Part shown: piece after piece, positions 4,905-59,368 of the stretch
How positions within the stretch are numbered: the stretch's first letter is position 1
Layout of the letters: each line of letters opens with the position of its first letter
Notes under the pieces: generated by a model
What the model saw: only the letters and a program-made list of their open reading frames with translations
The model's database searches: none
Told to the model about the DNA's origin: nothing
Made by a program: the position numbers and the translations under genes
Virus record (IMG/VR): IMGVR_UViG_3300048574_000421
Origin: a virus
Taxonomy: Duplodnaviria > Heunggongvirae > Uroviricota > Caudoviricetes
Length of the DNA: 64,000 bases
Direction: 5' to 3' (one strand)

Positions 4905-4957
4905 TTTAATGAAGAGCTGGGATAGCTCTTTAGACAGGACAGGGATAAAAATTAAAA

Positions 4958-14861: not shown

Positions 14862-15053
14862 TTATTGTTCATCTCCTGTTTTTTTTCTCAACAATTTTGT
14901 GCCTTCAACTTTCCAAACATTATCATCAACTCGACCCTCAAAAGGATCTTTTTTAGGAGAACCTAAACTTACTCTCTCAAAATAACTAGCTTTTTTTGTT
15001 TGAGGAAGATCAAGAACTTTTTCTAGAACGTTTGATTCATCAAATCTAAGCAT
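14862..15053 (-). CDS. hypothetical protein (63 aa)
   Basis: ORF track. Abuts its neighbours with no gaps. Confidence 0.3.
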   Translation of the reverse strand: MLRFDESNVLEKVLDLPQTKKASYFERVSLGSPKKDPFEGRVDDNVWKVEGTKLLRKKTGDEQ

Positions 15054-15727: not shown

Positions 15728-15803
15728 ATTGACCTCTTTTGAATTTTAATACAATAGTTACTAGTTTTATAGTTCAATGGCAAGATAAAAACTATAGAAA
15801 AAT

Positions 15804-17649: not shown

Positions 17650-17917
17650 AAAAACAAATCATATTAGGTTTGTCTTTAAAAAACATATATGCTCTACCTG
17701 TGTGCAATGCTCCAACACTAGAACATTTTTGTAATAATTGCGTCACTTGGCATTCTATAGATTGCATTGCAATATTATTTATACAAGAAGTTAAATGATT
17801 ATTATAGATATGCACAATTTGATTTGAAAAATCAGGTACTATAGAAGTGTCAATACACATACTTTCATCAAATTCTATTTGCAAATTATCTTCAAATTTG
17901 ACAACTCTTGCACGCAT
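17561..17917 (-). CDS. hypothetical protein (118 aa)
   Basis: ORF track. It overlaps the 5' end of 16666..17649 by about 90 nt, so one of the two starts is probably later than listed. Confidence 0.3.
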   Translation of the reverse strand: MRARVVKFEDNLQIEFDESMCIDTSIVPDFSNQIVHIYNNHLTSCINNIAMQSIECQVTQLLQKCSSVGALHTGRAYMFFKDKPNMICFYANENKFVFKDVFKRKISRFQFVFGDCNG

Positions 17918-18525
17918 TATTTCTTTCCATCAAACATGAAAGATTCATCAATTTCAAAAAATTTTGAAGCAACATTTTTCAACTCTTGTGAAGTAACATT
18001 CTTATTAGCAGAAAAAGAATATACTTCTACTTGAATATTTTGCAACTTTAAATACTCTACTAATGCTACAAAATCACCATCACCCGAGACTAAAACAACA
18101 GTGTCAAGAGCATCTTTCTTAGTGATGATATCTATTGCCATTTCAATATCTAAATTGCCTTTTGCTGACCCATCACTTCTTTTTTTCAAATCTTTTGAAA
18201 CTATATTGTAACCAATCTGTTTTAAAAAACTAACAAAACTTGTATTATCATTATCTCCTTTTACAAGATAAGCATTTGAAACACAAAGTTTTCTACCTTT
18301 AGTAATGCATTCAGTAAGTTTCTTAAAATCTATTTTTTTCTTAAAATTATCCATTGCACCATAATAGACATTTTGAACATCAACAAAAATCCCAACTCTT
18401 TCGTCAGGTGTGTTTCTGTTCTCTACTCTTACTTGAAACAAAAAATCCCCTTTAAGGGAATCAACAGCTTCAAGTAGTTTTTTATAGTTCTGTATTTTAC
18501 TTTCTTTCATTTTTTCCCTTATCAT
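17917..18525 (-). CDS. NYN-domain (LabA-like) putative ribonuclease
   Basis: GIFVDVQNVYYG ... VLVSGDGDFVALVEYLK...G..V.V matches the NYN/PIN-like acidic-residue pattern. Confidence 0.6.
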   Translation of the reverse strand: MIREKMKESKIQNYKKLLEAVDSLKGDFLFQVRVENRNTPDERVGIFVDVQNVYYGAMDNFKKKIDFKKLTECITKGRKLCVSNAYLVKGDNDNTSFVSFLKQIGYNIVSKDLKKRSDGSAKGNLDIEMAIDIITKKDALDTVVLVSGDGDFVALVEYLKLQNIQVEVYSFSANKNVTSQELKNVASKFFEIDESFMFDGKK

Positions 18526-25044: not shown

Positions 25045-25878
25045 TTATTGACAAGATAGACATCTTTTTGCATTATGAGCTTTAGCTACAAAAAGATTAT
25101 TACATTTGATGCATTTTTTTTCATACAACTTGGGATTGTTTTTTTTCGTATCACTAATTTTTTGTTTTGATTTTTCAGTATGAACCTTTCCAAAAAACGA
25201 ATTACCTTTACCTTTTGTCCGAGCACTAATATTCTTTTTTACTTCTTCTGAAAACTTCTTACCCTCAAGACTTTTAGTTATTTTTTGTTTAGACTCTAAA
25301 CTATGTTTTTTGCCAAACATTCCGTTATTTTCACCAGAAGAAGCACGACTTAATTTTCTTTTATGAGATTTAGAAAGAACTCTACCTTTATTTGCATTAC
25401 TTACTTTATCTTTTGCTTCTTGCGTATGTTTTCGTCCATACATACCATTTTTTTCGCCTGCTCCCTTGCCTTTTCTGTTTCTTTTTAACTTTCTAAGCGA
25501 TTTATCAGACAAATTATGTATTCCGTCACCACCATCTGTCAAATTTGTTAAAGGCCCAGTTTTTAAATCTATTCTACCAATTGATTTTATTAACTGTATT
25601 TCAAGTTTAGAAGCATCAACAAAGCTCAAATCTGTTTTTATTTTAATTCTAAAAGCATCTACACCTGTTTCTCTTTTAATCTTACAAATTTTATTTGCTT
25701 TTAATTTATTTGAGTCTTTATGTTTGTAAGCAGACTGTAAGTGGTGATCTATTCTATTTTCTCTTCCTAAACCTATATAAAAGGGTTCAAATGAAAACAA
25801 ATTATCAAAAACAATTGGTTTTCTTGGATCTAAATATGCATAAACATAAAAATCAGTTTTTTGACGATTTAATTTCAT
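25045..25878 (-). mobile_element. free-standing GIY-YIG homing endonuclease with NUMOD3 repeats
   Basis: GIY-YIG core FYVYAYLDP...PFYIGLGRENRIDHH. Three NUMOD3-like DNA-binding repeats (GMYGRKHTQEAKDKVS, GMFGKKHSLESKQKIT, SFFGKVHTEKSKQKIS). A C-terminal CxxC...CxxC. Confidence 0.75.
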
Positions 25879-26583: not shown

Positions 26584-26618
26584 AACAAAAAGAGCTAGGG
26601 ACTTGTTTGTCCCTAGCT
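26584..26618 (-). terminator. rho-independent terminator downstream of the recA-like gene
   Basis: 10-bp stem agctagggac / gtccctagct with a 6-nt loop. On the minus strand it is followed by CTTTTTGTTT. Confidence 0.5.
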
Positions 26619-31317: not shown

Positions 31318-32874
31318 TCAATTTTTTATTGCATCAACAAAATATTGTGGGAAAAATTTTCTATTTTGTTTAAGAAAGTAATTAAATTGACTATCCATGA
31401 TGTAGATCGTGCAAAAATCTTTTTCATGTCTTACACCACGACCTGCAGCTTGAACAAGCGTCAAAGCTGTTTTCCACTTATACCATTCACTATCAAGCTC
31501 CATACGTTTTTTTATTTGTTTGTCTCCCAAAAACATAAATGGCAACTTAACTATAACAACAAATCTTGCAAGATCGTCTTTTAAATCAACACCTTCTGTC
31601 ATTGAAGGTGTGATCAAAACTTTAGGCTCTTTTGTTTCTAAAAAACCTTTAAGTGCGTTAATTCGAGATTCACTATCATGTAAAATTAATCTTGATTGAT
31701 ACTTAGGATCGACGTTTTCTTTTATGTAATTTGCAATTTTATAAGAATGTGCATGAATCAATCCTTTTTCTGAATCATGAAACTCTAAAATCCTGCCTAT
31801 ATCAAAAGCTATTTTGGGTAAAGATTCTTCAATGTCGTTTTTTCCTAAATTCCCAGACCTTGTTAATATGATTGGTCTTATATCTACAGGAAATGAAGAA
31901 GGAACTTGAATAAACTTTGTCTTCTTAATATCTAAATCTAAATTTTTACAAAAACTATCTTTATCAAGAATTGTCGCTGACATAAATAGTTTTTTTTCAG
32001 CATGCCTAAAAAGTAAATTTTGAGCAAAAAACCCGACAGTTAAAGGTTTGAAAATAATTGTTTTTGACCTTAACTTTTCGTTAGTTGTTATATCAAAGAT
32101 CCACTCTATTTTCCCATAACTCTCCAAAAACATTTTTACACGTTCTTGTTGACTTATTAAGCTCTCAAGCTCTTTTTGAAGGTCAGAAATTATTGCTACA
32201 TCAAGAAATTTGTTTTTCAGTTTTTCTGTAGTTTCTTTTCTTCTTTCTTTTATTTTCTCTTGAAGCATCTTTAACCACTCGACATATTCTTCGAGTTTTT
32301 CATATAAAGGTATTTTTGAAGTTACACCAAGTTTTGAAAGATTGAAAGACGAAAAACTAAACTCAACAAACGACATACACTCATTATCTAAACTATGTGC
32401 TTCATCACATATCAAAAGTTTTCTATCAGGAAAAGTATTTGTGTAATTTGTAATACAAAGAAAGTACTTATAGTTCATTAAAGCAACAAAAGATTCTACA
32501 GCTTGTTGTTTTGCAACTTCATAAAAGCACTCGGGTTTTACAGGACATTGTTTTGTAGAACAATATGAATCTTCACATGTAAAATCAGGAAGCAATTTGC
32601 AAGGATAGTTGTTTCTACCTTTAAGAACTCTAACTCTACCCGAACTATAATCTTTTATGTATTGATCTTGAAGTATTTTTTGCGACGTTAAAAGGAAAGC
32701 AGATTTATAATAAAGTCCCAGACAAATTGCAATAGCGCTTTTACCTGAACCTGTAGGGCTTTCCAAAACAACATTCTCTATTTCTTCAGAATCTAAACTC
32801 TGTTGTATGTCGAGAATTGTTTCTTTTTGAAAAGGTCTGAACGTCGTGTGTGGGAAAAAATCGAGAACGCTCAT
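31318..32874 (-). CDS. XPD/Rad3/DinG-family Fe-S DNA helicase
   Basis: Motif I ESPTGSGKS, DEAH box ICDEAHSL, a Cys cluster between them (YPCKLLPDFTCEDSYCSTKQCPVKPEC), and motif VI QAAGRGVRHEKDF. Confidence 0.7.
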   Translation of the reverse strand: MSVLDFFPHTTFRPFQKETILDIQQSLDSEEIENVVLESPTGSGKSAIAICLGLYYKSAFLLTSQKILQDQYIKDYSSGRVRVLKGRNNYPCKLLPDFTCEDSYCSTKQCPVKPECFYEVAKQQAVESFVALMNYKYFLCITNYTNTFPDRKLLICDEAHSLDNECMSFVEFSFSSFNLSKLGVTSKIPLYEKLEEYVEWLKMLQEKIKERRKETTEKLKNKFLDVAIISDLQKELESLISQQERVKMFLESYGKIEWIFDITTNEKLRSKTIIFKPLTVGFFAQNLLFRHAEKKLFMSATILDKDSFCKNLDLDIKKTKFIQVPSSFPVDIRPIILTRSGNLGKNDIEESLPKIAFDIGRILEFHDSEKGLIHAHSYKIANYIKENVDPKYQSRLILHDSESRINALKGFLETKEPKVLITPSMTEGVDLKDDLARFVVIVKLPFMFLGDKQIKKRMELDSEWYKWKTALTLVQAAGRGVRHEKDFCTIYIMDSQFNYFLKQNRKFFPQYFVDAIKN

Positions 32875-33323
32875 ATATGCTCTATATCTTGTACTTTTGA
32901 TTTTACAATTTTATCGAAATATGAGGGCTTTATTTTCACTACACGCTTTCGTATTTCAACTATAATTCCATCTATATTTGAAAGATCACCTTGTTTTATA
33001 ATTACATGATCCCCTGTTTTAAATAACGAAGGTTTTGTTTGTTTTAATTCTACGTCAGTAACAGATAGCTTTTTAATTTGTGCTGATGTAAATTTTTGCG
33101 GACCTTCTTTTTTCGTCCCAAGAAATTTCAATACACCTTCAAAAACTAAAAAATTACTTACTTGTTGTGGTAAAATAGCAGTAGTAGAACGAATAAAAAT
33201 ATAACCTGAAAGCTCTTCTGAAGTAAACACTTCTTGAAAAGCCAAACTTTTTTGTTTTGAGACTAATTGATCTCTAATATATTGCTCAAAACCTTGGCGG
33301 ACTAAAAGAATATACCAACTCAA
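32871..33323 (-). CDS. NusG-like transcription antitermination protein (NGN + KOW)
   Basis: NGN start WYILLVRQGFEQYI. C-terminal KOW GDHVIIKQGDLSNIDGIIVEI. Confidence 0.6.
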   Translation of the reverse strand: MSWYILLVRQGFEQYIRDQLVSKQKSLAFQEVFTSEELSGYIFIRSTTAILPQQVSNFLVFEGVLKFLGTKKEGPQKFTSAQIKKLSVTDVELKQTKPSLFKTGDHVIIKQGDLSNIDGIIVEIRKRVVKIKPSYFDKIVKSKVQDIEHI

Positions 33324-34558
33324 GTTGACAATCCTTTTAATTTTGTTTTTACTGTAGAGACGATCATTCTTTTCATTTTAATAACATGACCTTTTGATCT
33401 CTTGTATTTTTTTGCTATTTCATCATCACCATTAATGTCATATTTCATATTACGTATTATATCATTATACATTGAATTTCGCAAATTTTCTCTCAAATCT
33501 CTTTCAATATGAAATAGATCATTAACATCAACATTGTATTTTTTTGCTAAGGAATAAAGAGAATTTTGCATCGTAGATTTATCTCGAATTACTTGGAGTA
33601 CCTCCTGTTTTAATTCGTCAGATGCATCAATGGTTTTTAATTGGAACATCATTTGAATATGCTTACACATATCTCTGTTCATAAGATCTTCTTCAAAATT
33701 GCTTTGAGGTATATGTGTTTTTTCACTAGAGATTATTTCATCCCATGAACATTCAGGATCGTCTAATTCTATTTTACAAGCATTTGTTTTTCGTTTTTTT
33801 GTAGATAAAAGTTGAAGAACTCTATTGAAAGCACAATTGATCACATACCAAGCATAAGTAGAAAAACAACCTGATGATTCTATATCAAACCATTTTGCAA
33901 CCTGTTTATGCAATGCAATTACAATATCTTGGTAAAAATCAGTTTCAGTCCTATCTTGAAATTGTGCAAAACGGTGTTTATTGAAACTAACATAATTTCT
34001 AATTATTTGGTCCCAAGTTTTACCATTTACACCACGTTGATATAGAATAGTATTAAAAATTCTATTTTGTTTCTTTTTATCTTCAGTTTCTCTGAATGCT
34101 TTGATTAGATCCTTTTCGTCTCTATCTTGAGGAAGTTGATCAGCTTTAACAACTACCTTTATTTTTCTTTTTTCTTCCTTTTTAATACGCTCTTTTTTAG
34201 TTTTAACTACTATAACTTCATGTTGAGTAACAGAAGGAGTGTAACTATCAGGTATTTTAAAATCAAAGTATTTTGAAAAAAGAGTTAAAAGTTCATGTTC
34301 ACTAAATATACTACCAATACATCTCATTTTGCCAAGATGTTTTTGTTTAGCTTCTTCTTCGGTAATTTTAATGAAGTTAGGTCCAAAATCTGGATTGTAT
34401 TCTAATAGTTGAACTTTTTTTCCAGAAAAGCATGCTTTTTTACCGTTTTCGTGTTTGAAAATCGTAAAATGTTTTGTTACGTCAGGCTTGATGTTAACCG
34501 GTAAAATTGAGAAAAAATCGTTAGACAAATACATAAATCTCTCCCACACTTTCAACAA
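33320..34558 (-). CDS. sigma-70-family-like transcription factor
   Basis: Region 2-like CFSTYAWYVINCAFNRVLQ (compare FSTYATWWIRQAITR). A plausible C-terminal region-4-like helix pair. It overlaps the NusG-like gene by 4 nt. Confidence 0.5.
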   Translation of the reverse strand: MLKVWERFMYLSNDFFSILPVNIKPDVTKHFTIFKHENGKKACFSGKKVQLLEYNPDFGPNFIKITEEEAKQKHLGKMRCIGSIFSEHELLTLFSKYFDFKIPDSYTPSVTQHEVIVVKTKKERIKKEEKRKIKVVVKADQLPQDRDEKDLIKAFRETEDKKKQNRIFNTILYQRGVNGKTWDQIIRNYVSFNKHRFAQFQDRTETDFYQDIVIALHKQVAKWFDIESSGCFSTYAWYVINCAFNRVLQLLSTKKRKTNACKIELDDPECSWDEIISSEKTHIPQSNFEEDLMNRDMCKHIQMMFQLKTIDASDELKQEVLQVIRDKSTMQNSLYSLAKKYNVDVNDLFHIERDLRENLRNSMYNDIIRNMKYDINGDDEIAKKYKRSKGHVIKMKRMIVSTVKTKLKGLST

Positions 34559-34743
34559 TGATGAAGGTAAATTTTTAAGGCGCGAAATAATTAGTGAATG
34601 TTATTATAAGGAAAGATTTTTATTGTAGGTAAGTTAATGATTTTTAATGCAGAATTGTGTGACTTTCTCATACTAAAAACTCCATTTTCGTAGGTGTATC
34701 TCATACATACGACAAATTAATTATCGTACCTTAAAATAATAAT

Positions 34744-35898
34744 TTATTGTAGGGCTAATGTAAATACGTTTTGCATATTTTTTGCATCATTAAGTGATTT
34801 TTCAAATTCATCTTTTGTACAATCATCAGGATCTTTTCCTTCAGGCAATACAAGATTAAAAACTTGAATATCTGTAAGGTACTCATGCATAATCTTTTGT
34901 GCAGCTTCTTGGCCTGGATTTGATTTTTTTCCATTTATATCTATTTTATTATCGTTATCTAATGCTATATAAATTCGTTCAAAATTTTGAACTAACTGTT
35001 TCGTCTTATAAGAGTTTAAATGGCAACTTAAAAGCGCGACAACATTGTATCCAAATTTCATAATTCTTAATGCATCAAAAATACCTTCGCAAATAAAAAC
35101 TTCTTTTTTGTATTTAATTGCTTCATCCCAGTTAAAAAACAACCTACTCATAGGCGTTCCAAAAGGATAAAGTATTTTTTTGTAAAGATATTTATCAATG
35201 ATACGTTGCTTATCTTGTTTTGAAAGATTTTTTGTCTTCATTATAGCTTTTGCTTTTGCCCATATATCTGACTTTCCCGACATATCTCTTGCAGCAAAAG
35301 TAATCAATTTATTTTGTAAATAAACTGGTATTATTAAACGTTCATGAAAAATTCTATCATCAACGCAATACTTCATCCCATATTTTTTAATATCTTCCAT
35401 ACAAACACGTTTTTTTACTATATCGAAATATTTCTCAGCAGGTTCACTTGGGGGCAAAACAACTTCTTTTAATTGTTCATCATCTTCATCTTCTGTATGA
35501 TTTTCATAAAACTGAAATGTAGAATTTTTCACTATTGAAAATACATCAACTGTCTCATCAATTCCCACTTGTCTTCTTGCAAACGCTATTGCTTCTTTTG
35601 TAGAGTTTAGATTTTCTAAGTTTTTTATTAACTTAACAAAATCACCACCTCCGCAAACAAAACAGTTATAAACACCATTTTTTTCTTGAATACCAAAAGA
35701 CGGCGTAGAATCATCATGAAAAGGGCAGAGACACATAAATTCTCTGCCCTTTTTTGTCCTATAAGGCTTATATTCAATATTGTAGTGCTTAAGAACTTTT
35801 TCAAGATTTACTTTTGCGTAAATCTCGTCATAGATTTGTTCATAGTTCTCTATCATTTTTAGCACACGTCTTTTTATACTGACAAAAATAACAATCAC
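34744..35898 (-). CDS. dnaG: DnaG-type DNA primase (zinc finger + TOPRIM)
   Basis: CHC2 zinc finger CLCPFHDDSTPSFGI...CFVCG. TOPRIM motifs CEGIFDALRI and YIALDNDNKIDINGKK...GQEA. Confidence 0.8.
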   Translation of the reverse strand: MIVIFVSIKRRVLKMIENYEQIYDEIYAKVNLEKVLKHYNIEYKPYRTKKGREFMCLCPFHDDSTPSFGIQEKNGVYNCFVCGGGDFVKLIKNLENLNSTKEAIAFARRQVGIDETVDVFSIVKNSTFQFYENHTEDEDDEQLKEVVLPPSEPAEKYFDIVKKRVCMEDIKKYGMKYCVDDRIFHERLIIPVYLQNKLITFAARDMSGKSDIWAKAKAIMKTKNLSKQDKQRIIDKYLYKKILYPFGTPMSRLFFNWDEAIKYKKEVFICEGIFDALRIMKFGYNVVALLSCHLNSYKTKQLVQNFERIYIALDNDNKIDINGKKSNPGQEAAQKIMHEYLTDIQVFNLVLPEGKDPDDCTKDEFEKSLNDAKNMQNVFTLALQ

Positions 35899-36616
35899 CT
35901 AGTCTTGAATTCAATTTAGGTTCTTTTGCAAAATCTTTCTTTGATATTCGTTCAAGCATATTGTTAATTTGTCTAAACAAACTATTAAAATCTTCTTCAG
36001 TTCTTTGTGTAAACAAAATATCTCCATCAATAGGATATGCAAGCGCTCCATGAATTGATTCTAATGGATATTTATATAGTTCTTTAATGAAAAAACTATA
36101 AAAAGTGATTTGTGTATTGTTGTCAATATCTTTCTCTTTGCTTTTTGAAGATTTCCAATCAAGACAAATGATTATTTCATTGTTCTCAAGAATAATATCA
36201 ATCCTACCTGACAAAAAAACATTATCAAGATAAGGATTAATAAAGGGTATCTTACAATATTTTTCTATTTCAACTACTCTAAAACCTTCCCAACGTTTTT
36301 TCATTTTCTTGACATTTCCAATTTGCAATAATCCCTTAACTAAACAATCATCAAGTTCTTTTGCATTAGGAAAATTTAAACCCTTTGCTTCTGTACAAAA
36401 AGCTATAAACAATGCTTTCCAAGATGAAGCAATTTCATCTAAACTCATTCCATACTTGAAATGTAATTCTAAAGCTTTATGTAAGACTGAACCAAAAGTC
36501 GTAAAAATATATGCTTCATCAGCTGGTCTCTCATCAATAAACTGCCATTTGTACATTTGCGAACATTTAAAAAACGAAGACAAAGATGATGAAGAAACTG
36601 TTAAATAATCTCTCAT
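35840..36616 (-). CDS. Cas4/RecB-family PD-(D/E)XK nuclease with Fe-S cysteines
   Basis: N-terminal Cys (FFKCSQMYKWQF) plus a C-terminal CYFCQYKKTCAK triad. Core residues GRIDIILE...LDWKSSKS fit D...E.K. It overlaps the primase gene by 59 nt. Confidence 0.6.
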   Translation of the reverse strand: MRDYLTVSSSSLSSFFKCSQMYKWQFIDERPADEAYIFTTFGSVLHKALELHFKYGMSLDEIASSWKALFIAFCTEAKGLNFPNAKELDDCLVKGLLQIGNVKKMKKRWEGFRVVEIEKYCKIPFINPYLDNVFLSGRIDIILENNEIIICLDWKSSKSKEKDIDNNTQITFYSFFIKELYKYPLESIHGALAYPIDGDILFTQRTEEDFNSLFRQINNMLERISKKDFAKEPKLNSRLGDCYFCQYKKTCAKNDREL

Positions 36617-37959
36617 GATTTCATCTCGTTAAACAAAAACTCTACTGCTTTTTCATTTACTGTACCAATGTACATCGAGTTATAAGGTATTTTATTTTGT
36701 AACAGATCTTGCTTAATTTTTGCCTCTCTATTAGAATCAAATTTTAAAAGATTTGTAATTCTCATTGTATAAGCAACAACTTCATCTTCTGTAGCTTTGA
36801 TATCAAAATCCTTAACAATCTGTTCTATAACAAGTGACGTCTTCACTACTTGAATTGTACGAGGTGTTGTGTTTACGATAAAACTTTCTTTTGTTACTTT
36901 GCTTTCTTTTTCAAGTTGTCCTTCAGTTTTCCCCATACGTCTCAATAAAGCTTCCCACTCATTATCATTTTCTTTATCGATCATCACTTGTGGAATTGGT
37001 GAAATTTCTGATTCATCAACAATTTTTGAAAGAATGACTTTTTTAAACGTATCAATTGATTTCTTTTGTTTTTCATCAAGTAAACGAATTTTCAAATTAT
37101 CTTCATAAGCTTGAATAGAATCAAAACCCTTTGATTTTGCAAAACTGTCATTATAATCAGGTGCGACTTTGTATTTTATTGCATTTAGTTTTACAGTAAA
37201 TATAACTTTTTTACCTGACAATTCTTTACTATGATAATCAACAGGGAAAGTCACATTTACTTGACGTACTTCGTTAATTTTCATTCCGACAAGTTGATCT
37301 TCAAAATTATCAATAAATTGCTTTCTTCCATTGACAAGATCATTTACTCTAATCTGATAGTTCTTTGCTGTTCCACCTTTAAAAGGTGTTGTTTCTCCAT
37401 CAAGAACACCTTCAAAATCTATTAAAGCAATATCAAGATTTTCTAAAATTTCTTTTGTAGAGTCGTGAATTGTTTCGCTTTGTTTGATTTCTGCATCAAT
37501 CTTCTCTTTTAACTCAACATCAGAAATAGTTGTTGCTTCAAGTTTCTCTGTTTCTTTTATCTTATCTAATGAAACAAGTTTGACAGTCGGTTTTACTTCA
37601 GCAACAAACTCTATAGTAAGTGTTGATTTTCTTTTTAAATCTCCAAAGATCTTAAAATCTCTAGTCGAGACAAGACTAGTTTCTAATGTCGCAATGTCTC
37701 TAACAATCTGATCAATCATTGATTTATATAAACGTTCAACGCCAATTTTAGTTTCAGCAACATCTTGAGGTACACAACCTTTTCTAAAACCTGGTACTTC
37801 GATTTCAGACTTTACTCGTTCGTAAGCAGCTTTCTTTCTTTCATTCACATCATCAGCATCAACTGTGACAATGTATTTTACAGGTGTTGGCATTTTTTCT
37901 GTCTTAATGTCCATTATACTACTCCTTGTCTTTCTCGACAACTGTCGAAGATGCTTCAT
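36613..37959 (-). CDS. tig: trigger factor homologue (ribosome-associated chaperone/PPIase)
   Basis: Ribosome-binding signature PGFRKGCVP (TF: GFRKGKVP). FKBP-like domain IDFEGVLDGETTPFKGG...VNVTFPVDYHSKELSGKKVIFTVKLNAIK (E. coli TF: IDFTGSVDGEEFEGG...[27 protein letters not shown]). The overall three-domain length is 448 aa. Confidence 0.75.
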   Translation of the reverse strand: MKHLRQLSRKTRSSIMDIKTEKMPTPVKYIVTVDADDVNERKKAAYERVKSEIEVPGFRKGCVPQDVAETKIGVERLYKSMIDQIVRDIATLETSLVSTRDFKIFGDLKRKSTLTIEFVAEVKPTVKLVSLDKIKETEKLEATTISDVELKEKIDAEIKQSETIHDSTKEILENLDIALIDFEGVLDGETTPFKGGTAKNYQIRVNDLVNGRKQFIDNFEDQLVGMKINEVRQVNVTFPVDYHSKELSGKKVIFTVKLNAIKYKVAPDYNDSFAKSKGFDSIQAYEDNLKIRLLDEKQKKSIDTFKKVILSKIVDESEISPIPQVMIDKENDNEWEALLRRMGKTEGQLEKESKVTKESFIVNTTPRTIQVVKTSLVIEQIVKDFDIKATEDEVVAYTMRITNLLKFDSNREAKIKQDLLQNKIPYNSMYIGTVNEKAVEFLFNEMKS

Positions 37960-41943: not shown

Positions 41944-44900
41944 TTAAAAGTGCTTCTTTACTTTAAACAAAGGTTCAGATTCGTAAATTTTCATTCTTTT
42001 CTTTGAATGACCAGTAAGATATCGAATTCTATCATAAAAATCAACAATAATTGCTTCTTTTTTTTCATTATTTTCAGCTGAAGGGTATGGTCTTAACGTA
42101 CGTCCCACTCTTTGTAAGGACTTAATAAGCGATTTGCCTCCACCTGCCATAATTGCTGAACCTAAAGCAGGTATGTCTACACCTTCGTCAGCAACAGAAC
42201 TTCCTACAAGAACTTGTAATTGTTTTTTACGAACTTTGTTAAGTAAATCTTTTCGCATCTCTCCATCAACTTCACCTTGTATAAAAGCAACAGAGCTAAC
42301 TCCCGCCTTGTCTAGCATTTCACATAACACATCACCATGAGGTAACCTGGTGACAGTAATCAACACAGACTTACCTAACTCGAGTAATCGTAGGCAACTA
42401 TCAACAATCATTTCATTTCGAAGTTTATTGTTAACAATATAATCTTCGTAAATATTCCTAAAAGATTTTTGGACATATTTATATCTTGGATGCTCATTTG
42501 GGTCAAGCATGTAGATGTGAGGTTGTACAAGAAAACCTCGTTCTATAAGAAAAGATGCATCAATGTTACAAATCTGTCTGCCTGAATAAGCATCAAGCAC
42601 TTTATCAATTGATTTGTCTCTATAAGGTGTTGCTGAATTGTGAACAAGTACACCATTTGCGAAAAAATTCTGATTTTCTGGGCCTACATCTTCAATAGTT
42701 AAATCTAAAAGAAAATCTTCATTATTTTCTATTTCGTTTTTTGAAATTAATGTGATTATTGGATCTTCAAACAGTAAAAAACTTAATTTTTGTTTTAGTC
42801 TAAAAGCTTTAAGATCTTCTCTTCTCAAAACTAAGTAATTAAAATTTAATGATTTATAAATTTCATCTTTATAGTAAGGTATTCTATCCATACCATCATA
42901 TTCAAGATAAAAATCTTTTCCTTCATGTTTGACTTTAAAATCAGCAAAACATCTAGTTCCAGGAATGTTGGGATGTATTTCGTGACTTATATTATTCTTG
43001 TAAAGCCAATTATCAAGCATCATTTCACCTTTAGAATCACAAATATGCCCGTCTATAGCTTTAACAGATTTTGCATATCTTTTTACGCCTTCCCTTTTTA
43101 ATCTTGATTGCGAGACAAGACCAGAAATAATCATTGGCGTTATTATTTTTAATCTTTCTTCTTTTGTTTTCTTACTCCAAGCTTTTTTTGATCTTTTACT
43201 AACAAGTTCAGAATCAATAAAATTTGGATGGTGACACATTCTTTCAAATTTTTCAGGTTCTTCTTGTCTTAAGTGCTGCATTGTCTTTTTTTGCCTTGCA
43301 CTCATTTTTTCTCTATCTTTTTTTGTCAAATTCTTAAAAAATTCTTGTGATGCTTTGTTTCCTAGTTTAAGGAAGCTTTTTCGTCTAACCTGTTCATCAT
43401 CAGATAAACTGTCCCACCATTCTTTACGTTTTTTTGTTCTTATTTTATTCGATTCTTTAAGTTTGCATCTATCAGAACAATATTTATGTGGTGCAACAAC
43501 TTCTTTTCCACAAACGCAAAATCTTTTTATTTTCTCTATTGAACTAAACTTATCACCTATAGTCAAATCTATTGCTTTTTTAAAATCATTAATATCATTA
43601 ACATAAAATAAATGTGTTTCAGCACAAATTATTCTTATTTTTTCTTTATTTTCATTTTCAAAAATCAACTCAAATAATCTTTTTCCTTTGGCATCAATCT
43701 TAATAATTCTTGCTTTTTTAGGTTCCAATATTTTTTTAATTAGATTAAAAGTCATAACTTGAATAAATTTATCTTTATTTGCATAATACAAAGGTGATAA
43801 CTGACATTCTCTACCATCAGCAAGTAAGACTTTAGTTTTTTTATGAAGGCATAAACTGTACCGGTAATATGCATTTTGATATAATTTTGCCATCTGAATA
43901 TAAATCTCAGCAGTTGCACGATGACAATTACTTACAAGTATTCCTTCAGCAAAATAATTGTGATTATCTTCAACCTCAATATTATACCTTTTCTCATCTT
44001 TTATTTTCTTTTGCATCCTTACGCTCTTAACAACAGCTTCATCATGATTAAAAACAAAAGTGTTTATTTTTAATTTTGTCTCTTCCCAATTTTCTTCTAT
44101 GTCTTCATTTGTTAAATAAAGACATTTAAAATCTATTGATTCAAAACCCTTTTTTACTCTTTCAATCTCTTCTTTTGTGTGCCAAAAAGTTATATTACCA
44201 ACTTCAATTACTTTTCTTTGGTTTTTAATTTTAAAATCGGGATTTTTACTCCAACATTTTCCATCAGGTTTAGTGCCTATTCTTAACCAAAACTTACCAT
44301 TACCTGTATATCTAATCTCTGGTATTTTCAAATCTAGTATTGCTTGTTCTAAACGTGTTGGCTTTATTTCTTTTCCTTTTATACGTTTAGGTGCATTCAT
44401 AAATCTTTCTCTAACTATAGCCTTTTCTTCTTCTGTTTTATTTTCAAAATTTTTTAACCAGCCCAGTCTCATTCTCTCTCTTATTACAGGATTTTTATTC
44501 ATTTTAGACATTAAGCTTGAACGTACTTTAAAATGCTTCAATTTTGATTGTTCAGAAAATTTTATTTTTTCTCTGTGCACTCTCTCTCTATGTAAACATC
44601 TATGTTTTTTACAATAAAATCTTGGTCTTGACCTATTTGCATTAATTTTTAACACATCACTCTCTAACAAATCTTTTGCTTGAACATAACCCCTATTTTT
44701 TGTCCAAAACTTATGACTTGGTGTACAAAATATTAATTTTTCTTTTCCTTTAAAAACAAAAGTTATAATACACCAAGGTTCAGAAACTTGCGTTATTAAT
44801 CTACGTAATATTCGTTTTTGCTCAAAAATTTGTTTTTCATGATTATAAGATAAAACATGTGTAATTGCATCATTTTCACAAATATCTTTGATGTACATAT

Positions 44901-45675
44901 ATTCATCTAAACTTATATGTACGTGGGTTTCTGCTTGAAAACACTCATCATTTATTACAACATCAGCTTCAAGTACAGCTTTTCTAATATCTTCTTTTCT
45001 TTCAAGAACATGCTTTTGAATTTTTTCTTTAAACATGTTCTCTTCATCAATTGCACTGTATTTCAAATCAAATGCACTATGTAAAGTCTGTACAGTACAA
45101 ATATTTATTTGTTTAATATCGCAATGACCACCACCTATTTTCCCAACTTTTATTTGAAACATCTTTTCGAATTCATCAGCAGTTTGTTCAAGTAAATCTA
45201 TTGAATAAACAATGAAAAGAGTTTTTAAATTCAATCGTGCTACAATTGCAGCAGCAATAACAGTCTTGCCACCACCAGTTGCAACTTTTATTACACCACG
45301 TTCAGCTTCAATAGATTTTTCAACAACTTCATGCTGATAATCTCTTAATTGTTTTGAATGCATTTGCAAAGGTTCACCAATAATTGGAACATTACGTGCA
45401 TCTACAACATTAAAAGATAGACGGCAGTCATTTAATATGCTTTCTAATGTCGAATAAAGTCCTGTAGGATAACGAAGTTGTTCACGTTCAAAAAGTGTTA
45501 TATCAAGTTCTATAGTTTCTTTTCTAAATCTCGAATACTCTTCTCGAGAATAAGACATTTCATGCTCAATACGTCTAACAAGATCAGTATTCAATCTTAT
45601 GTTAGGTTTTAAATGAGTCCAAGTGTTTTCTATAACAATATCAAAATCTGCCATATTACTTTCTAATATAATCAA
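41944..45675 (-). CDS. SF2 DNA helicase (UvsW/XPB-like) precursor interrupted by two inteins
   Basis: Motif I KVATGGGKTVIAAAI. Motif II is reconstituted as VVINDE+CH (a DECH box) when residues 245-583 are removed. Motif III SATPYR follows residues 609-1013. Motifs V and VI are GSSVADEGVDIPALGSAI and QRVGRTLRP. Spliced size is about 499 aa. Confidence 0.8.
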   Translation of the reverse strand: MIILESNMADFDIVIENTWTHLKPNIRLNTDLVRRIEHEMSYSREEYSRFRKETIELDITLFEREQLRYPTGLYSTLESILNDCRLSFNVVDARNVPIIGEPLQMHSKQLRDYQHEVVEKSIEAERGVIKVATGGGKTVIAAAIVARLNLKTLFIVYSIDLLEQTADEFEKMFQIKVGKIGGGHCDIKQINICTVQTLHSAFDLKYSAIDEENMFKEKIQKHVLERKEDIRKAVLEADVVINDECFQAETHVHISLDEYMYIKDICENDAITHVLSYNHEKQIFEQKRILRRLITQVSEPWCIITFVFKGKEKLIFCTPSHKFWTKNRGYVQAKDLLESDVLKINANRSRPRFYCKKHRCLHRERVHREKIKFSEQSKLKHFKVRSSLMSKMNKNPVIRERMRLGWLKNFENKTEEEKAIVRERFMNAPKRIKGKEIKPTRLEQAILDLKIPEIRYTGNGKFWLRIGTKPDGKCWSKNPDFKIKNQRKVIEVGNITFWHTKEEIERVKKGFESIDFKCLYLTNEDIEENWEETKLKINTFVFNHDEAVVKSVRMQKKIKDEKRYNIEVEDNHNYFAEGILVSNCHRATAEIYIQMAKLYQNAYYRYSLCLHKKTKVLLADGRECQLSPLYYANKDKFIQVMTFNLIKKILEPKKARIIKIDAKGKRLFELIFENENKEKIRIICAETHLFYVNDINDFKKAIDLTIGDKFSSIEKIKRFCVCGKEVVAPHKYCSDRCKLKESNKIRTKKRKEWWDSLSDDEQVRRKSFLKLGNKASQEFFKNLTKKDREKMSARQKKTMQHLRQEEPEKFERMCHHPNFIDSELVSKRSKKAWSKKTKEERLKIITPMIISGLVSQSRLKREGVKRYAKSVKAIDGHICDSKGEMMLDNWLYKNNISHEIHPNIPGTRCFADFKVKHEGKDFYLEYDGMDRIPYYKDEIYKSLNFNYLVLRREDLKAFRLKQKLSFLLFEDPIITLISKNEIENNEDFLLDLTIEDVGPENQNFFANGVLVHNSATPYRDKSIDKVLDAYSGRQICNIDASFLIERGFLVQPHIYMLDPNEHPRYKYVQKSFRNIYEDYIVNNKLRNEMIVDSCLRLLELGKSVLITVTRLPHGDVLCEMLDKAGVSSVAFIQGEVDGEMRKDLLNKVRKKQLQVLVGSSVADEGVDIPALGSAIMAGGGKSLIKSLQRVGRTLRPYPSAENNEKKEAIIVDFYDRIRYLTGHSKKRMKIYESEPLFKVKKHF
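42637..43851 (-). mobile_element. intein 2 (405 aa) inserted immediately before helicase motif III
   Basis: Block A is CLHKKTKVLLADGRE. Block B is CAETHLFYV. C-terminal blocks are LLDLTIEDVGPENQNFFANGVLVHN followed by the +1 Ser of SATPYR. The internal zinc ribbon is FCVCGKEVVAPHKYCSDRC. The DUF559/Vsr-like module is LDNWLYKNNISHEIHPNIPGTRCFADFKVKHEGKDFYLEYDG. Confidence 0.7.
43927..44943 (-). mobile_element. intein 1 (339 aa) inserted in helicase motif II
   Basis: Begins with Cys (CFQAETHV...). Block B is CTPSHKFWT. C-terminal blocks are YNIEVEDNHNYFAEGILVSN followed by the +1 Cys. The internal module LEQAILDLKIPEIRYTGNGKFW...PDFKIKNQRKVIEVGNITFWH is DUF559/Vsr-like. Boundary codons were checked against the nucleotide sequence. 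Confidence 0.7.
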
Positions 45676-46513: not shown

Positions 46514-49450
46514 CTATTTTGTTACTATTCTTTCTTCAAGATGAAATAAATCAACAAGAATGTTCTCACCAATTTCACCTGTATGTACACCTTTATTACC
46601 TATTTGTACCATAAGATAAAGTTGTCCTGTTGTTTTATTTCTAACCAAAATTGGCATAATAAATTCAGCATAAGTAGAATCAACTAAAGGCTCTTCAAAA
46701 ATAACTTCTAACATTGGTAAACCGAAGAAACCTCTTGGTGCTTGCAATGTTGGCATTGTATAATCTTCTGACCATAATTGTCCTCCACCATGATATCCAT
46801 ATAGATCATATGTTGCAGTTGACCAAAAATCTGAATTATAACGTTTTTTTCCACAACTTGAAATCTCTATTGCAGTTCCATTTCTTAAATGATCATCAAA
46901 TGAACCTGGTAATCTTGGTGAAACAGGAGTGTATGCTTGATTTGAAGTACCGCTTGAACCTGTAACGCTTATAGTTCCTCCACCAGTACCATTATTAAAG
47001 AAAACACCTTTTTCTCTTTTATAAGTTAAAGAAAGTGTTTGACCTCCGACAGAACTACCCTGATAAGGAGTGTATGAATAAATCATTCTTATGTCGGCAC
47101 CATCATGTGGTGCTCCAAGATAGTCGCAATCAATCCACACAGATTGTCTATCAGCCATAGAATTTATATAACTATTATTATATGACTGCGAACAATCAAT
47201 AATATAACCACCAATATCGTACCCATAACCTGCACTTTGTCTGACTTTTATTCTTGTGCCTGCCCATTTGAATTGTGATTCAGTAGCACCTGTAGGAATT
47301 GGCCATATATCACCTGTTTGATTACACAATATTATTCTCGATCCAATAGCAGAACCTGTAACAACTTTATGTTCAAGAACAAAACTTAAAGCAGAACCTT
47401 GATACATATATCCAAGTAATTCGATTTCTGAACCTACACCTGAAGGAATATATTGTAGTGATGACAGTGTTCCAATAAAACTATCTTCTTCTAACAAAAT
47501 TTTGTTTTCAGAAATTATTAAATCAGAAACTTGAAGTCTTGTTACGACTTGTTGCATTGCAATCTCTGTACCACCTGTAGCTGAAGTATAAACACCTCGT
47601 AAATGTTGTAAAGGATATGGTACGTGAACAGTTTTCGCTGTCTTATTAAGAGTCTCAACTTGTAATGTTCGTGTTGTCCCATTTTTTTCTGATGTAGTTT
47701 GAATCAAAGGCGAAATCTTTATTTGTTTACGTTGTTTAACTAGATTAGTCTCCGTAAATGTTTCAGTGTTTGTTTTATTCTCAAATGGATGTTGTAATAA
47801 ATCCTGATAACGCATTGTTTCAGTCTTTATATTTGAACCTCTAACAACTGTTCCACTAGAACCAAATGCAGAAGCATTAAAATACTGAACTCTTAAAAGT
47901 TCATCAGGTGTATAAGTAAGACCTTGATTAACAGGAAATTCAAGATCATAATAGACCCAAATACTATAACTTGTTCCAACCCAGACACCAGGAGGCAAAG
48001 CATAAGTTGCTTGATCTGTATTTAAACCTGCCCAGGCACCTCCTATTATAGGTGTTTTTGCAGTGTCTTCTAAATAAAGACGAGGTGTTGATTTTATAAT
48101 TGTTCCAACAGGTAATCTTGTAGTAGTCTTAAAAACAATTGTATTGCCTATTGCCCAATTTCCTGTACCTGCACCTCTATAAACATCTAAAGCTGTACTA
48201 AAAGTTGTTGTTGTAACTTTAGCAAAAATATCAGACTGTTGTGTGATTGCATCAGACCAATAAATTCTCTTTCCACTTGCTCCAGCATTAGAAAGAAAAT
48301 CATTATAACCAAGAACGTCAGTGTCAGAAATCGAATCATATGCAAGCATTTGTTGCCAATTAGTTCTCAATGTCCCTCTAAAAAGTTTGTCTAAATTTTG
48401 CTCCATTATTTTTTGATAGTCTAATGACAAAGCAATTTTATTTCTAAGATCAACAATATCAGTAGCATCAATTCCATCATTAAATTTTTTATCAGGCCTG
48501 TCAGAAACAAGACTTGAAAGTGGCGTTGAGTTTCCAGCTTGATTATAAGGTACAGATGCTAAATCGCCTGCTGTATCATTATAAGGGTTTGTTCCTCTTC
48601 TACTAATTTTGAACATAGGTATTGCATAAACATAACCGTCAACAGTTTTCAAAGTCGTTTGTGAAGCTTGATTCCCACTTCCTGCACGCCATAAACCTGC
48701 ATCACCAAGTTCTGTAGCCATATTTGTGAAACCATAACCTGTAAGTTGAGGTGAGTTTCCAGCACCTTGAGCTTGAACAGAACTGTTTTCAAAACCTGAA
48801 GAATCAGTGTTTGTAAAAACTACATCAGAAACACAACGTATTCGATATTGTATTTGTACACGTTCAGAAGTTTCTTCATCAAACACAGTATCAATTGAAT
48901 CATCAGGCAAATTTGTTCCTGTAAATTGAACATTTCCAAACTTATACACATATTCACTTGTTGGTTTATTCTGATTATAAGGAACATTATTTTCATCTCT
49001 TGCTCTGAGTTGTGCTCTCCATACTTCTAAAAACACAAAATCAGTACGTCGACTGCTTGGAGCTTCTAAAACTATACAATTCAAAATAGAACTTGTGAAA
49101 TTTGTTCCACCAACAAGAAGCGGCCAACCATTTACTATTGCATTTGGCAATGCTAATTCTTGTTGATTTTCTTGAGCGTAAAACTCTACTGTATTTGAAA
49201 TACCTGAGTTTGTCGAATGTTTATTTTTACCTAAATTTAACCAACCACTTGGTAAAACAGAACGTATTGTGTTAGTGAACATTTCCATTGACAAATCATT
49301 AATCAAATTCCACTCTGAATCTAATGCTGGCTTACCTGTCCTCCAAATGACATTTGTATAAGACTTGTAGTTTGTTTGTATTGTCCTTGAAACTATTTCT
49401 TCAGAAGGTGTCAGTTTTAAAGCATTATAATTATTTGTCCCTAGATTCAT
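46514..49450 (-). CDS. large virion protein, probably tail fibre/tailspike-like (978 aa)
   Basis: G/T/S/N-rich composition and its position next to other fibre genes. No catalytic motif recognised. Confidence 0.45.
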   Translation of the reverse strand: MNLGTNNYNALKLTPSEEIVSRTIQTNYKSYTNVIWRTGKPALDSEWNLINDLSMEMFTNTIRSVLPSGWLNLGKNKHSTNSGISNTVEFYAQENQQELALPNAIVNGWPLLVGGTNFTSSILNCIVLEAPSSRRTDFVFLEVWRAQLRARDENNVPYNQNKPTSEYVYKFGNVQFTGTNLPDDSIDTVFDEETSERVQIQYRIRCVSDVVFTNTDSSGFENSSVQAQGAGNSPQLTGYGFTNMATELGDAGLWRAGSGNQASQTTLKTVDGYVYAIPMFKISRRGTNPYNDTAGDLASVPYNQAGNSTPLSSLVSDRPDKKFNDGIDATDIVDLRNKIALSLDYQKIMEQNLDKLFRGTLRTNWQQMLAYDSISDTDVLGYNDFLSNAGASGKRIYWSDAITQQSDIFAKVTTTTFSTALDVYRGAGTGNWAIGNTIVFKTTTRLPVGTIIKSTPRLYLEDTAKTPIIGGAWAGLNTDQATYALPPGVWVGTSYSIWVYYDLEFPVNQGLTYTPDELLRVQYFNASAFGSSGTVVRGSNIKTETMRYQDLLQHPFENKTNTETFTETNLVKQRKQIKISPLIQTTSEKNGTTRTLQVETLNKTAKTVHVPYPLQHLRGVYTSATGGTEIAMQQVVTRLQVSDLIISENKILLEEDSFIGTLSSLQYIPSGVGSEIELLGYMYQGSALSFVLEHKVVTGSAIGSRIILCNQTGDIWPIPTGATESQFKWAGTRIKVRQSAGYGYDIGGYIIDCSQSYNNSYINSMADRQSVWIDCDYLGAPHDGADIRMIYSYTPYQGSSVGGQTLSLTYKREKGVFFNNGTGGGTISVTGSSGTSNQAYTPVSPRLPGSFDDHLRNGTAIEISSCGKKRYNSDFWSTATYDLYGYHGGGQLWSEDYTMPTLQAPRGFFGLPMLEVIFEEPLVDSTYAEFIMPILVRNKTTGQLYLMVQIGNKGVHTGEIGENILVDLFHLEERIVTK

Positions 49451-59298: not shown

Positions 59299-59368
59299 AA
59301 AATTCCCTATTTGTTCGATTACATTTTGTTTCTAATTACAAAACAAGATAAAAACTTTTCAAATTATT

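What the first reader, a model, noticed from the sequence alone, without database searches (positions are those of the whole stretch)
32871..34558. Phage-borne sigma-70-like factor translationally coupled to a NusG/KOW paralogue
The two genes overlap by 4 nt. The downstream product has an NGN start (WYILLVRQGF) and a KOW motif. The upstream product carries a region-2-like CFSTYAWYVIN motif. Specialised NusG paralogues paired with dedicated regulators (UpxY-type, LoaP-type) control long polysaccharide or secondary-metabolite operons. Here the pair could drive processive late transcription of the very long minus-strand virion operons. The upstream intergenic region (34559-34743) has a duplicated TTTATTGTAGG motif.
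Basis: partly seen in the sequence, partly recalled or inferred. Interest (0 to 1): 0.6.

Follow-up and report, generated by a model that had tools for sequence, protein, structure and literature searches.

The report
Huge-phage sigma factor paired with NusG
An uncultivated huge phage carries a very divergent sigma factor gene directly followed by a NusG-type elongation factor gene, and in some related phages both proteins carry the same unknown N-terminal domain, which suggests a phage-made pair of start and elongation factors for RNA polymerase.

Summary

The order primase, leader, sigma, NusG, XPD-like helicase is conserved in every related contig examined. These are all uncultivated phages, with contigs up to 424 kb.

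New points:
- The sigma has an extra ~95-aa N-terminal domain with no known family.
- In three related phages the same domain is also fused to the NusG-like protein. In one of them the two copies are 86-88% identical.
- The leader carries a conserved, locus-specific TATGAGA array.

The pair heads a replication/recombination unit, not virion operons. It does not qualify as UpxY, LoaP, RfaH or housekeeping NusG. A role in late-gene or processive transcription is plausible but untested.

The parts
33320..34531 (-). Sigma-70-family gene (403 aa from ATG 34531; the ORF extends to TTG 34558). Domains: N-terminal domain, linker, sigma domain 2, linker, C-terminal HTH domain(s).
   Evidence: 28 homologues, 48-96% identity, all starting at the ATG position.
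34247..34531 (-). N-terminal domain (aa 1-95), alpha/beta, conserved motif HLGK.R..G. It has no Pfam, PHROG or PDB-sequence relative. It also occurs as small stand-alone proteins and is fused to the NusG-like protein in three related phages.
   Evidence: (pLDDT 85-92).
33797..34156 (-). Sigma domain 2 (aa ~126-245), including DFYQDIVIALHKQVAKWFD and CFSTYAWYVINCAFNRVLQLLSTKKRK (regions 2.1-2.4).
33323..33703 (-). C-terminal helical region (aa 277-403) with two consecutive HTH-like segments: LAKKYNVDVNDLFHIERDLRENL (aa ~327-349) and IAKKYKRSKGHVIKMKR (aa 372-388). This is either sigma3+sigma4 or sigma4 plus an extra HTH.
32871..33323 (-). NusG-family gene (150 aa, TTG start): NGN aa 1-86 (33066-33323), flexible linker, KOW aa ~99-150 (32874-33029).
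   Evidence: PF02357 26.9 bits, cut-off 22.2; KOW2_Spt5 27.7, cut-off 28.9; phrog_6386; 8; 23 (profile vs T. maritima NusG 9e-7); 38; Foldseek to Spt5/NusG/RfaH, best 3e-9.
33320..33323 (-). TTGA overlap of the sigma stop and the NusG-like start. The junction is -4 to +8 nt in all relatives.
34532..34743 (-). Leader/intergenic region between primase and sigma. It is not unusually structured as RNA and has no Rfam match.
   Evidence: z -0.32.
34666..34705 (-). TATGAGA array: exact copies at 34699-34705 and 34666-34672, with a degenerate TACGAAAATGGAG between them (34680-34692). The array is conserved at this position in 10 of 11 related loci and clustered nowhere else.
   Evidence: 21 of 42 same-strand hits in 148.5 kb lie within 300 nt upstream of sigma.
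34743..34753 (+). It overlies the primase stop codon and is part of a block CCTACAwTAAATTATTATT shared with L004-L006. It sits in the spacer of a sigma-70-like promoter match (34764-34736).
34619..34629 (+). It is not conserved in relatives and lies 10 nt upstream of a perfect TATAAT.
31318..32874 (-). XPD/DinG-like helicase. Its start overlaps the NusG-like stop by 4 nt, and it is the conserved third gene of the unit.
   Evidence: phrog_2488, 2.5e-110.
26593..26618 (-). First strong terminator-like hairpin downstream of the pair (10-bp stem, T run). It lies after the RecA/UvsX-like gene and is the probable end of the ~8-kb transcription unit.

Best explanation
The locus encodes a phage-made pair of RNA-polymerase accessory factors that are co-transcribed and probably translationally coupled. 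One is an initiation factor, a divergent sigma-70-family protein with an extra N-terminal domain. The other is an elongation factor, a NusG-family NGN+KOW protein.

Most likely mechanism (inferred): both act on the host multisubunit RNA polymerase. The sigma redirects it to phage promoters, probably for the next temporal class of genes. The NusG-like protein then occupies the same clamp-helix site on the elongating enzyme, making phage transcription processive and resistant to host termination.

The pair is made from the head of a replication/recombination operon, so its appearance would be timed with DNA replication.

Shown: the identity of both proteins, their conserved adjacency, and the sharing of the N-terminal domain in some phages.
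Inferred: binding to RNA polymerase, the target promoters, antitermination, and timing.
For: Sigma identity:
- A profile of 29 family members hits sigma region 2 in 21 of 24 PDB matches.
- 11 of 29 members hit Pfam Sigma70_r2.
- In the exhaustive 1.84-billion-protein search, all ten of the weak 170-230-aa hits that were scanned are canonical Sigma70_r2 proteins, most also with r4.
- hhalign to those proteins gives 99.1% over 170 columns, including a region-4 HTH.
- The top 50 Foldseek PDB hits are all sigma factors.
- The relative lacking the N-terminal domain, P0047, hits phrog_351 'RNA polymerase sigma factor'.

NusG identity:
- Pfam NGN is above its cut-off.
- The profile matches NusG structures at 9e-7.
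- The AF2 model has an NGN plus a five-strand KOW barrel, with full-length Foldseek matches to Spt5, NusG and RfaH.

Partnership:
- The order primase, leader, sigma, NusG-like, helicase holds in L001-L006, L008 and L009, including the ~290-aa sigma relatives that lack the N-terminal domain.
- The junction is -4 to +8 nt everywhere.
- In L004, L007 and L008 the NusG-like protein carries the sigma's N-terminal domain: 86-88% identical within L004, 49% within L008.

Host-RNAP dependence:
- No RNA polymerase gene was recognised among the window ORFs tested or in the flanks of the related loci.
- Jumbo phages with sigma factors generally lack their own polymerase (PMC7824862).
- Sigma region 2 and the NusG NGN domain compete for the beta-prime clamp helices. 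This is established knowledge; see PMC12802917.
Against: - The window protein alone gets no Pfam or NCBIfam sigma hit, so sigma identity rests on family-level profiles and a predicted structure.
- The canonical sigmas used for hhalign were chosen because they matched the same profile, which inflates the region-2 part of that score.
- No shared promoter motif was found upstream of window genes.
- No virion genes were recognised, so no target regulon is defined.
- The window is only 64 kb of a genome that may exceed 190-420 kb, so a phage RNA polymerase elsewhere cannot be excluded.
- Tight gene junctions are common in this genome and do not prove a functional partnership.
- The host is unknown.
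Confidence: 0.6

Rival explanations
1. Both proteins are what they appear to be but work independently. The sigma switches promoter class. The NusG-like protein is a general shield against host Rho, or a transcription-translation coupler, for all phage transcripts. Their adjacency is just compact operon packing in a replication/transcription module.
For: 4-nt overlaps are common in this genome, and the NusG-like gene overlaps the helicase gene in the same way. Bacillus phage G has a sigma near the homologous helicase but no NusG-like gene, so sigma can sit there alone.
Against: The pair is adjacent in every related genome examined, across sigma identities down to ~30%. The same N-terminal domain has been placed on both proteins in three phages, in what looks like more than one event. 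That is hard to explain without a shared partner or site.
Confidence: 0.22
2. The pair serves a phage-encoded multisubunit RNA polymerase located elsewhere in the genome, not the host enzyme.
Against: No polymerase subunit was recognised among the window ORFs tested or in the flanks of the related loci. In the jumbo-phage survey, phages with their own polymerases lack sigma factors and phages with sigmas lack polymerases (PMC7824862).
Confidence: 0.08
3. The sigma-like protein is not an initiation factor. It is a decoy or inhibitor that occupies host core polymerase or host sigma-binding partners, or an ordinary HTH DNA-binding regulator. It may act on the TATGAGA array in its own leader.
For: Divergence is extreme: there is no single-sequence Pfam hit. 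At the two positions equivalent to sigma-70 W433 and W434 it has Y and V (reading of the alignment). There is an extra N-terminal domain and a possible extra HTH. A conserved operator-like repeat lies just upstream.
Against: Domain 2 and the region-4-type domain are both retained under strong conservation, with invariant FSTY, W214 and the KRK segment. The architecture matches full-length group-3 sigmas. L001 has the N-terminal-domain sigma but no TATGAGA array, while L009 has the array but a sigma without that domain, so the array does not track the domain.
Confidence: 0.1

Closest known systems
Specialised NusG paralogues encoded next to their target operons (UpxY in Bacteroides, LoaP in Bacillus/Firmicutes, TaA in Myxococcus; RfaH and ActX in Enterobacteria and their plasmids)
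   Same: It has the NGN+KOW architecture and fold. It is encoded at the head of a long co-directional gene array, just behind a leader that carries a conserved cis element. UpxY, LoaP and TaA are likewise adjacent to their targets (PMC7819879).
   Different: It scores 24-31 bits against models whose cut-offs are 100-145 bits, so it belongs to none of these subfamilies. It is phage-encoded and always preceded by a sigma gene. In some phages it carries an extra N-terminal domain shared with that sigma. No ops or JUMPStart-like element or leader RNA hairpin was identified.
Phage T4 late transcription: gp55 (minimal sigma) plus gp33 (co-activator), both tethered to the gp45 sliding clamp
   Different: The second factor here is a NusG-family elongation factor, not gp33. 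This sigma keeps a region-4-type domain, which gp55 lacks. The shared element is a folded ~95-aa N-terminal domain, not a short C-terminal clamp-binding peptide. Clamp binding was not tested.
Phage-encoded sigma factors of jumbo and other phages (Bacillus phage G gp69, SPO1 gp28 and gp33/34, T4-like group 2 jumbo phages)
   Same: A sigma factor redirects host polymerase. In phage G a sigma gene also lies about 2 kb upstream of the homologous XPD-like helicase.
   Different: Phage G gp69 is a canonical sigma (68 bits to the canonical profile, about 7-9 bits to this family). It has no N-terminal domain and no adjacent NusG-like gene. The broad jumbo-phage survey does not mention NusG or Spt5 at all.
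Lambda N / Q and P23-45 gp39 antitermination
   Same: A functional analogy only: a phage makes host polymerase resistant to pausing and termination on its own long operons (PMC7819879 and PMC3351154).
   Different: Those phages use unrelated small proteins and borrow the host NusG. Here the phage brings its own NusG-family protein.

Membership tests
Sigma-70 family | Domain sigma2 (regions 2.1-2.4: core binding and -10 recognition) | tested here: met
Sigma-70 family | Domain sigma4 (region 4.2 helix-turn-helix for -35 recognition and beta-flap binding) | tested here: met
Sigma-70 family | Binds core RNA polymerase and directs promoter-specific initiation | not testable with these tools
   This needs biochemistry. 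The search for a shared promoter motif in the window was inconclusive.
NusG/Spt5 family | N-terminal NGN domain | tested here: met
   PF02357 scores 26.9 bits against a cut-off of 22.2, over aa 1-86. The profile matches T. maritima and E. coli NusG structures at 9e-7 to 1.5e-5. Foldseek matches are full-length.
NusG/Spt5 family | C-terminal KOW beta-barrel | tested here: met
   KOW2_Spt5 scores 27.7 bits, just below the 28.9 cut-off. The AF2 model has five strands over aa 106-149. Foldseek alignments to NusG and Spt5 cover both domains.
UpxY family (NF033644) | Score at or above the NCBIfam cut-off of 100 bits | tested here: not met
   31.0 bits.
LoaP (NF033641) | Score at or above the NCBIfam cut-off of 125 bits | tested here: not met
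   31.3 bits.
RfaH (TIGR01955 / NF006534) | Score at or above the cut-off (144.5 / 124 bits); ops-type recruitment; KOW able to refold into an alpha hairpin | tested here: not met
   24.1 and 19.8 bits. The KOW is modelled as a beta barrel. No ops-like element was identified. Fold switching is not testable here.
Housekeeping NusG (TIGR00922) | Score at or above the cut-off of 135.7 bits | tested here: not met
   28.4 bits.
Specialised NusG paralogue systems in general | Recruitment by a cis element in the leader of the target operon | tested here: inconclusive
   A conserved, locus-specific TATGAGA array lies in the leader. Nothing links it to the NusG-like protein. There is no Rfam match and no unusual RNA structure.
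T4 gp55-type late sigma | Minimal sigma (sigma2-like only, no sigma4) that depends on gp33 and the sliding clamp | tested here: not met

The most novel reading that the evidence does not exclude
The ~95-aa N-terminal domain is a docking module that this phage clade attaches to both its initiation factor (sigma) and, in some members, its elongation factor (NusG-like). Through it, the two proteins, which compete for the same clamp-helix site on RNA polymerase, would be held at one common partner: a polymerase surface, a replisome or DNA-tracking protein, or each other through dimerisation. They could then be exchanged in a programmed sigma-to-NusG hand-off. That would be a phage-encoded, physically coupled initiation-elongation factor system, conceptually parallel to T4 gp55/gp33 on the sliding clamp but built from different parts.
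Probability: 0.2. Interest if true: 0.8.

Novelty: new variant of a known kind. Interest (0 to 1): 0.6.

Why it matters
Phage sigma factors are textbook material. Phage-encoded NusG-family proteins are barely studied, and specialised NusG paralogues are known mainly from chromosomes and plasmids. Three things here are new:
- a sigma-NusG gene pair conserved across a clade of huge uncultivated phages;
- an uncharacterised domain that has been placed on both proteins in what looks like more than one event;
- a conserved leader element upstream of the pair.

Together these give a concrete, testable system for two questions: how a virus controls both the start and the continuation of transcription by a host polymerase, and how sigma and NusG exchange on the clamp helices. 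The work also defines a new domain family (HLGK.R..G motif) with a likely role linked to transcription or the nucleoid.

Tried and rejected
- Single-sequence searches of the sigma-like protein gave nothing useful: Pfam, NCBIfam, PDB phmmer, and tblastn against 50,697 phage records. The Helicase_C hit at E 0.018 is noise. tblastn of the NusG-like protein against phages also found nothing.
- The JGI names 'transposase' (P0008) and the NCBI 'Candidatus Nanoarchaeia' MAG label (P0021, P0126) were treated as annotation or binning artefacts. The contigs are phage-like and are in IMG/VR.
- Promoter motif search: k-mer enrichment in 3.5 kb of non-coding sequence gave only modest signals (TATAAA 2.9-fold, TCTATAG 6.6-fold). 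A 12-mer GTTTTTATCTTG is shared by two intergenic regions, but the relaxed pattern is scattered through coding sequence. No consensus could be called.
The two copies sit at different distances from the nearest -10-like hexamers, and copy 2 is not conserved.
- TATGAGA repeats as in-frame Met-Arg codons of a leader peptide: rejected. The copies are in one frame in the window and in L008, but in L003 and L006 they are interrupted by stops (reading).
- Leader as a structured RNA or riboswitch: no Rfam match and z = -0.32.
- Internal duplication of the C-terminal HTH: hhalign E 0.003, probability 11%. Suggestive only.
- Second sigma-like gene (15804-16508) as a paralogue of this family: no similarity.
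- Host inference: the sigma family is absent from GTDB species genomes, and the tmRNA 3' end has no exact match there.
- A NusG-like gene near the homologous helicase in Bacillus phage G, Tunturi_5 or Xoo-sp13: none found.
Full report
**What is there.**
On the minus strand, ORF 33320-34558 (412 aa from a TTG) and ORF 32871-33323 (150 aa, TTG start) overlap by the four bases TTGA. All 28 homologues of the upstream protein begin at the position of the internal ATG at 34531 (consensus M.LS..FF), and GGGAGAG lies just upstream of that ATG. The gene is therefore most likely 33320-34531 (403 aa) and the leader 34532-34743. The NusG-like stop in turn overlaps the ATG of the next gene, a helicase, by four bases. 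Several other gene pairs in the window do the same. The overlap is normal operon packing here. Even so, the sigma/NusG junction stays within -4 to +8 nt in all nine genomes compared.

**The downstream protein is a NusG-family protein.**
- Pfam NusG (NGN) scores 26.9 bits against a cut-off of 22.2, over residues 1-86. KOW2_Spt5 scores 27.7 against 28.9.
- PHROGs gives phrog_6386, 'transcription antiterminator'.
- A profile of 19 family members matches solved NusG structures (T. maritima 9e-7, E. coli 1.5e-5) and Spt5 KOW domains.
- An AlphaFold model (pLDDT 78.6) shows an NGN alpha/beta domain, a disordered linker and a five-strand barrel.
- Foldseek finds archaeal Spt5, bacterial NusG and RfaH over the full length, best E 3e-9.
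- It is not a member of any curated subfamily. LoaP scores 31.3 bits (cut-off 125), UpxY 31.0 (100), NusG 28.4 (135.7) and RfaH 24.1 (144.5).

**The upstream protein is a divergent sigma-70-family protein.**
Alone it gives no Pfam, NCBIfam, PDB-sequence or phage tblastn match. The family-level evidence is consistent:
- A profile of 29 members hits 24 PDB sequences, and 21 of them are sigma factors aligned at the same block, sigma region 2. The best is SigF at E 0.018.
- Eleven of the 29 members reach Pfam Sigma70_r2 on their own.
- An exhaustive HMMER search of 1.84 billion representatives returns 80 hits. All ten of the weak 170-230-aa hits that were scanned are canonical Sigma70_r2 proteins, and eight of them also carry a region-4 or similar HTH.
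- Profile-profile comparison with those proteins gives 99.1% probability over 170 columns, covering region 2 and a region-4 HTH. The region-2 part is partly circular, because the proteins were selected by the same profile.
- The AlphaFold model (pLDDT 79.5) has three well-predicted domains: 1-100, 126-245 and 277-400.
- The top 50 Foldseek PDB matches are all sigma factors, with alignments of up to 313 columns to group-3 sigmas.
- The C-terminal domain contains two consecutive HTH-like segments, both beginning (L/I)AKKY. Canonical region 4.2 aligns to the first of them. The second is the best conserved across the wider family. The two align to each other only weakly. Sigma3+sigma4 versus sigma4 plus an extra HTH is unresolved.

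**Modularity and the shared N-terminal domain.**
The exhaustive search splits the protein into modules:
- About 290-aa proteins match only positions ~130-400, the sigma module. One of them, P0047, hits phrog_351 'RNA polymerase sigma factor'.
- Proteins of ~90-170 aa match only positions 1-91.

This N-terminal domain is alpha/beta, carries the motif HLGK.R..G and is modelled at pLDDT 85-92. It has no Pfam, PHROG or PDB-sequence relative. In many stand-alone homologues it follows a Lys/Pro/Ala-rich basic tail.

In three related phages the NusG-like protein is 267-270 aa and consists of this same domain fused in front of NGN+KOW (P0061 in L004, P0066 in L007, P0068 in L008).
- In L004 the sigma and NusG copies of the domain are 86-88% identical in protein and 89% in DNA, with 31 scattered differences. 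This is a real and recent duplication, not an assembly artefact.
- In L008 the two copies are 49% identical.

The fusions are therefore of different ages or arose more than once. In the window the domain is on the sigma only.

**Context.**
The window is 31% GC, and nearly all ORFs are on the minus strand. Around the pair, in transcription order, lie:
- a DnaC-like loader, DnaB-like helicase, a full trigger-factor homologue, a PD-(D/E)XK nuclease and the primase;
- the 212-nt leader, sigma and the NusG-like gene;
- an XPD/DinG-like helicase, a 5'-3' exonuclease, an HU-like protein, a gp32-like SSB, a RecA/UvsX-like recombinase, RuvC, a homing endonuclease, SbcD, SbcC and a ligase.

The first strong terminator-like hairpin on the gene strand after the pair is at 26593-26618, behind the RecA-like gene. 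The pair therefore heads an ~8-kb replication/recombination unit. No capsid, portal, terminase or tail family was recognised among the ORFs tested, so 'virion operons' is not supported for this window.

The order primase, leader, sigma, NusG-like, helicase is kept in L001-L006 and L008. It is also kept in L009, where the sigma is an NTD-less relative with ~30% identity.

The family occurs only in metagenomic or viral contigs, up to 424 kb and 192 kb in IMG/VR, and not in 185,579 reference species genomes. The nearest deposited phages, judged by the helicase at ~32% identity, are jumbo phages such as Bacillus phage G. Phage G has a canonical sigma about 2 kb upstream of that helicase. Neither it, Tunturi_5 nor Xoo-sp13 has a NusG-like gene there.

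**The leader.**
- Copy 1 overlies the primase stop codon. It belongs to a block (CCTACAwTAAATTATTATT) shared with three relatives, and it sits in the spacer of a sigma-70-like promoter match at 34764-34736.
- Copy 2 is not conserved.

A different element is conserved: two or three copies of TATGAGA, often followed by AATGGAG, directly after the primase stop.
- Of 42 same-strand TATGAGA occurrences in 148.5 kb of related loci, 21 lie within 300 nt upstream of the sigma gene.
- Clusters of two or more occur nowhere else.
- In the window the heptamer is not enriched overall (8 observed, 13 expected).

It is therefore a locus-specific control element, not a general promoter motif. It is not a consistent reading frame. 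The leader has no Rfam match and no unusual predicted RNA stability. Its presence does not track the N-terminal domain: L001 has the domain but no array, and L009 has the array but no domain. What binds it is unknown.

**Mechanism.**
Shown:
- two RNA-polymerase accessory factors, one of the initiation class and one of the elongation class;
- their obligate adjacency and co-orientation;
- their position in a replication-module operon;
- the sharing of a domain between them in some genomes.

Inferred from established knowledge:
- Sigma domain 2 and the NusG NGN domain bind the same beta-prime clamp-helix surface and replace one another after promoter escape.
- Specialised NusG paralogues make long operons resistant to Rho and to pausing.
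- Phages with sigmas normally use the host polymerase (PMC7819879, PMC12802917, PMC7824862).

From this, the sigma most likely redirects host polymerase to a phage promoter class, and the NusG-like protein takes over on elongating complexes to secure processive, termination-resistant transcription. I put about 0.6 on this combined functional model, and about 0.9 on the two family assignments. That the targets are late or virion genes is plausible by analogy with T4 and SPO1, but it is untested.

**Novelty.**
Phage sigma factors are known. NusG-like genes are sporadically annotated in phages and prophages (phrog_6386; H. pylori prophages, PMC11321410). Neither the NusG-family review nor the jumbo-phage survey describes phage NusG paralogues, and no paper in the searched library pairs one with a sigma. 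The conserved pair, the shared uncharacterised N-terminal domain and the leader array make this a new variant of known kinds, not a new category.

Noticed in passing
window 4955-5360 (-): The phage encodes a full-length tmRNA. ARAGORN calls it with the tag peptide VNKIAVNFALAFANNVRLGMANTIVA, and Rfam RF00023 scores 127 bits, E 2e-49. Its 3' end has no exact match in 185,579 reference species genomes.
   Followed up: partly
window 36613-37959 (-); also L001-L005 and L008: The phage encodes a complete trigger-factor homologue (Trigger_N + FKBP_C + Trigger_C, all above the Pfam cut-offs). It is conserved between the DnaB-like helicase and the PD-(D/E)XK nuclease in all related loci that cover this region. 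The jumbo-phage survey that was read does not mention trigger factor.
   Followed up: partly
window 15804-16508 (-): This is a second sigma-related gene. The 234-aa protein has only a Sigma70_r4 match (27.6 bits, aa 74-117) and a phrog_351 hit. It is unrelated to the sigma family studied here. It may be a 'minimal sigma' or a gp33-like factor.
   Followed up: partly
window 41944-45675 (-): This DEAD/ResIII helicase is 1243 aa, against ~490-505 aa in L002, L003 and L005. It is interrupted between the ResIII and Helicase_C parts by ~750 aa that carry Intein_splicing matches in two stretches, so it holds one or two inteins. The L001 homologue (851 aa) also has an intein.
   Followed up: partly
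window 51304-59298 (-), 59790-61676 (-), 61703-63772 (-), 46514-49450 (-): Several very large ORFs lie here. The 2664-aa protein has Big_7, CHB_HEX_C and Fn3-associated domains. Its neighbours have GLUG and Listeria-Bacteroides repeat matches. A 978-aa ORF has no match at all. None has a PHROG match. They may be adhesin- or fibre-like structural proteins, but this is not established.
   Followed up: no
window 17917-18525 (-) and 25045-25878 (-): A NYN-domain (predicted RNase) protein scores 122 bits. A homing-endonuclease-like gene is inserted between the RuvC-like gene and its downstream neighbour.
   Followed up: no
window 15780-15791 and 59343-59354 (gene strand); TCTATAG at several intergenic sites: An identical 12-mer GTTTTTATCTTG lies in two intergenic regions: upstream of 15053-15727 and upstream of the 2664-aa gene. 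TCTATAG is 6.6-fold enriched in non-coding segments (5 copies in 4 segments). These are possible promoter or regulatory elements, but no consensus could be established.
   Followed up: partly
L002 ~9880-9930, L008 ~4040-4090, L009 ~790-840 (distal part of the primase-sigma leader): These three more distant relatives share a second leader block (CC.CT.T.GTACCA.AT.TAC...CCTA.A.GAT.TT). Read in one frame, it encodes a similar short peptide (PLLYHIY...). It is absent from the window. It could be a small ORF or a DNA/RNA element.
   Followed up: no
P0073, P0080, P0085, P0087, P0092, P0109, P0110 and others (stand-alone homologues of the N-terminal domain): Many stand-alone members of the new domain family carry a long Lys/Pro/Ala-rich tail, like those of histone H1 or Hc1, in front of the domain. 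This hints at nucleic-acid or nucleoid association. The contexts retrieved were short phage-like contigs and were uninformative.
   Followed up: partly
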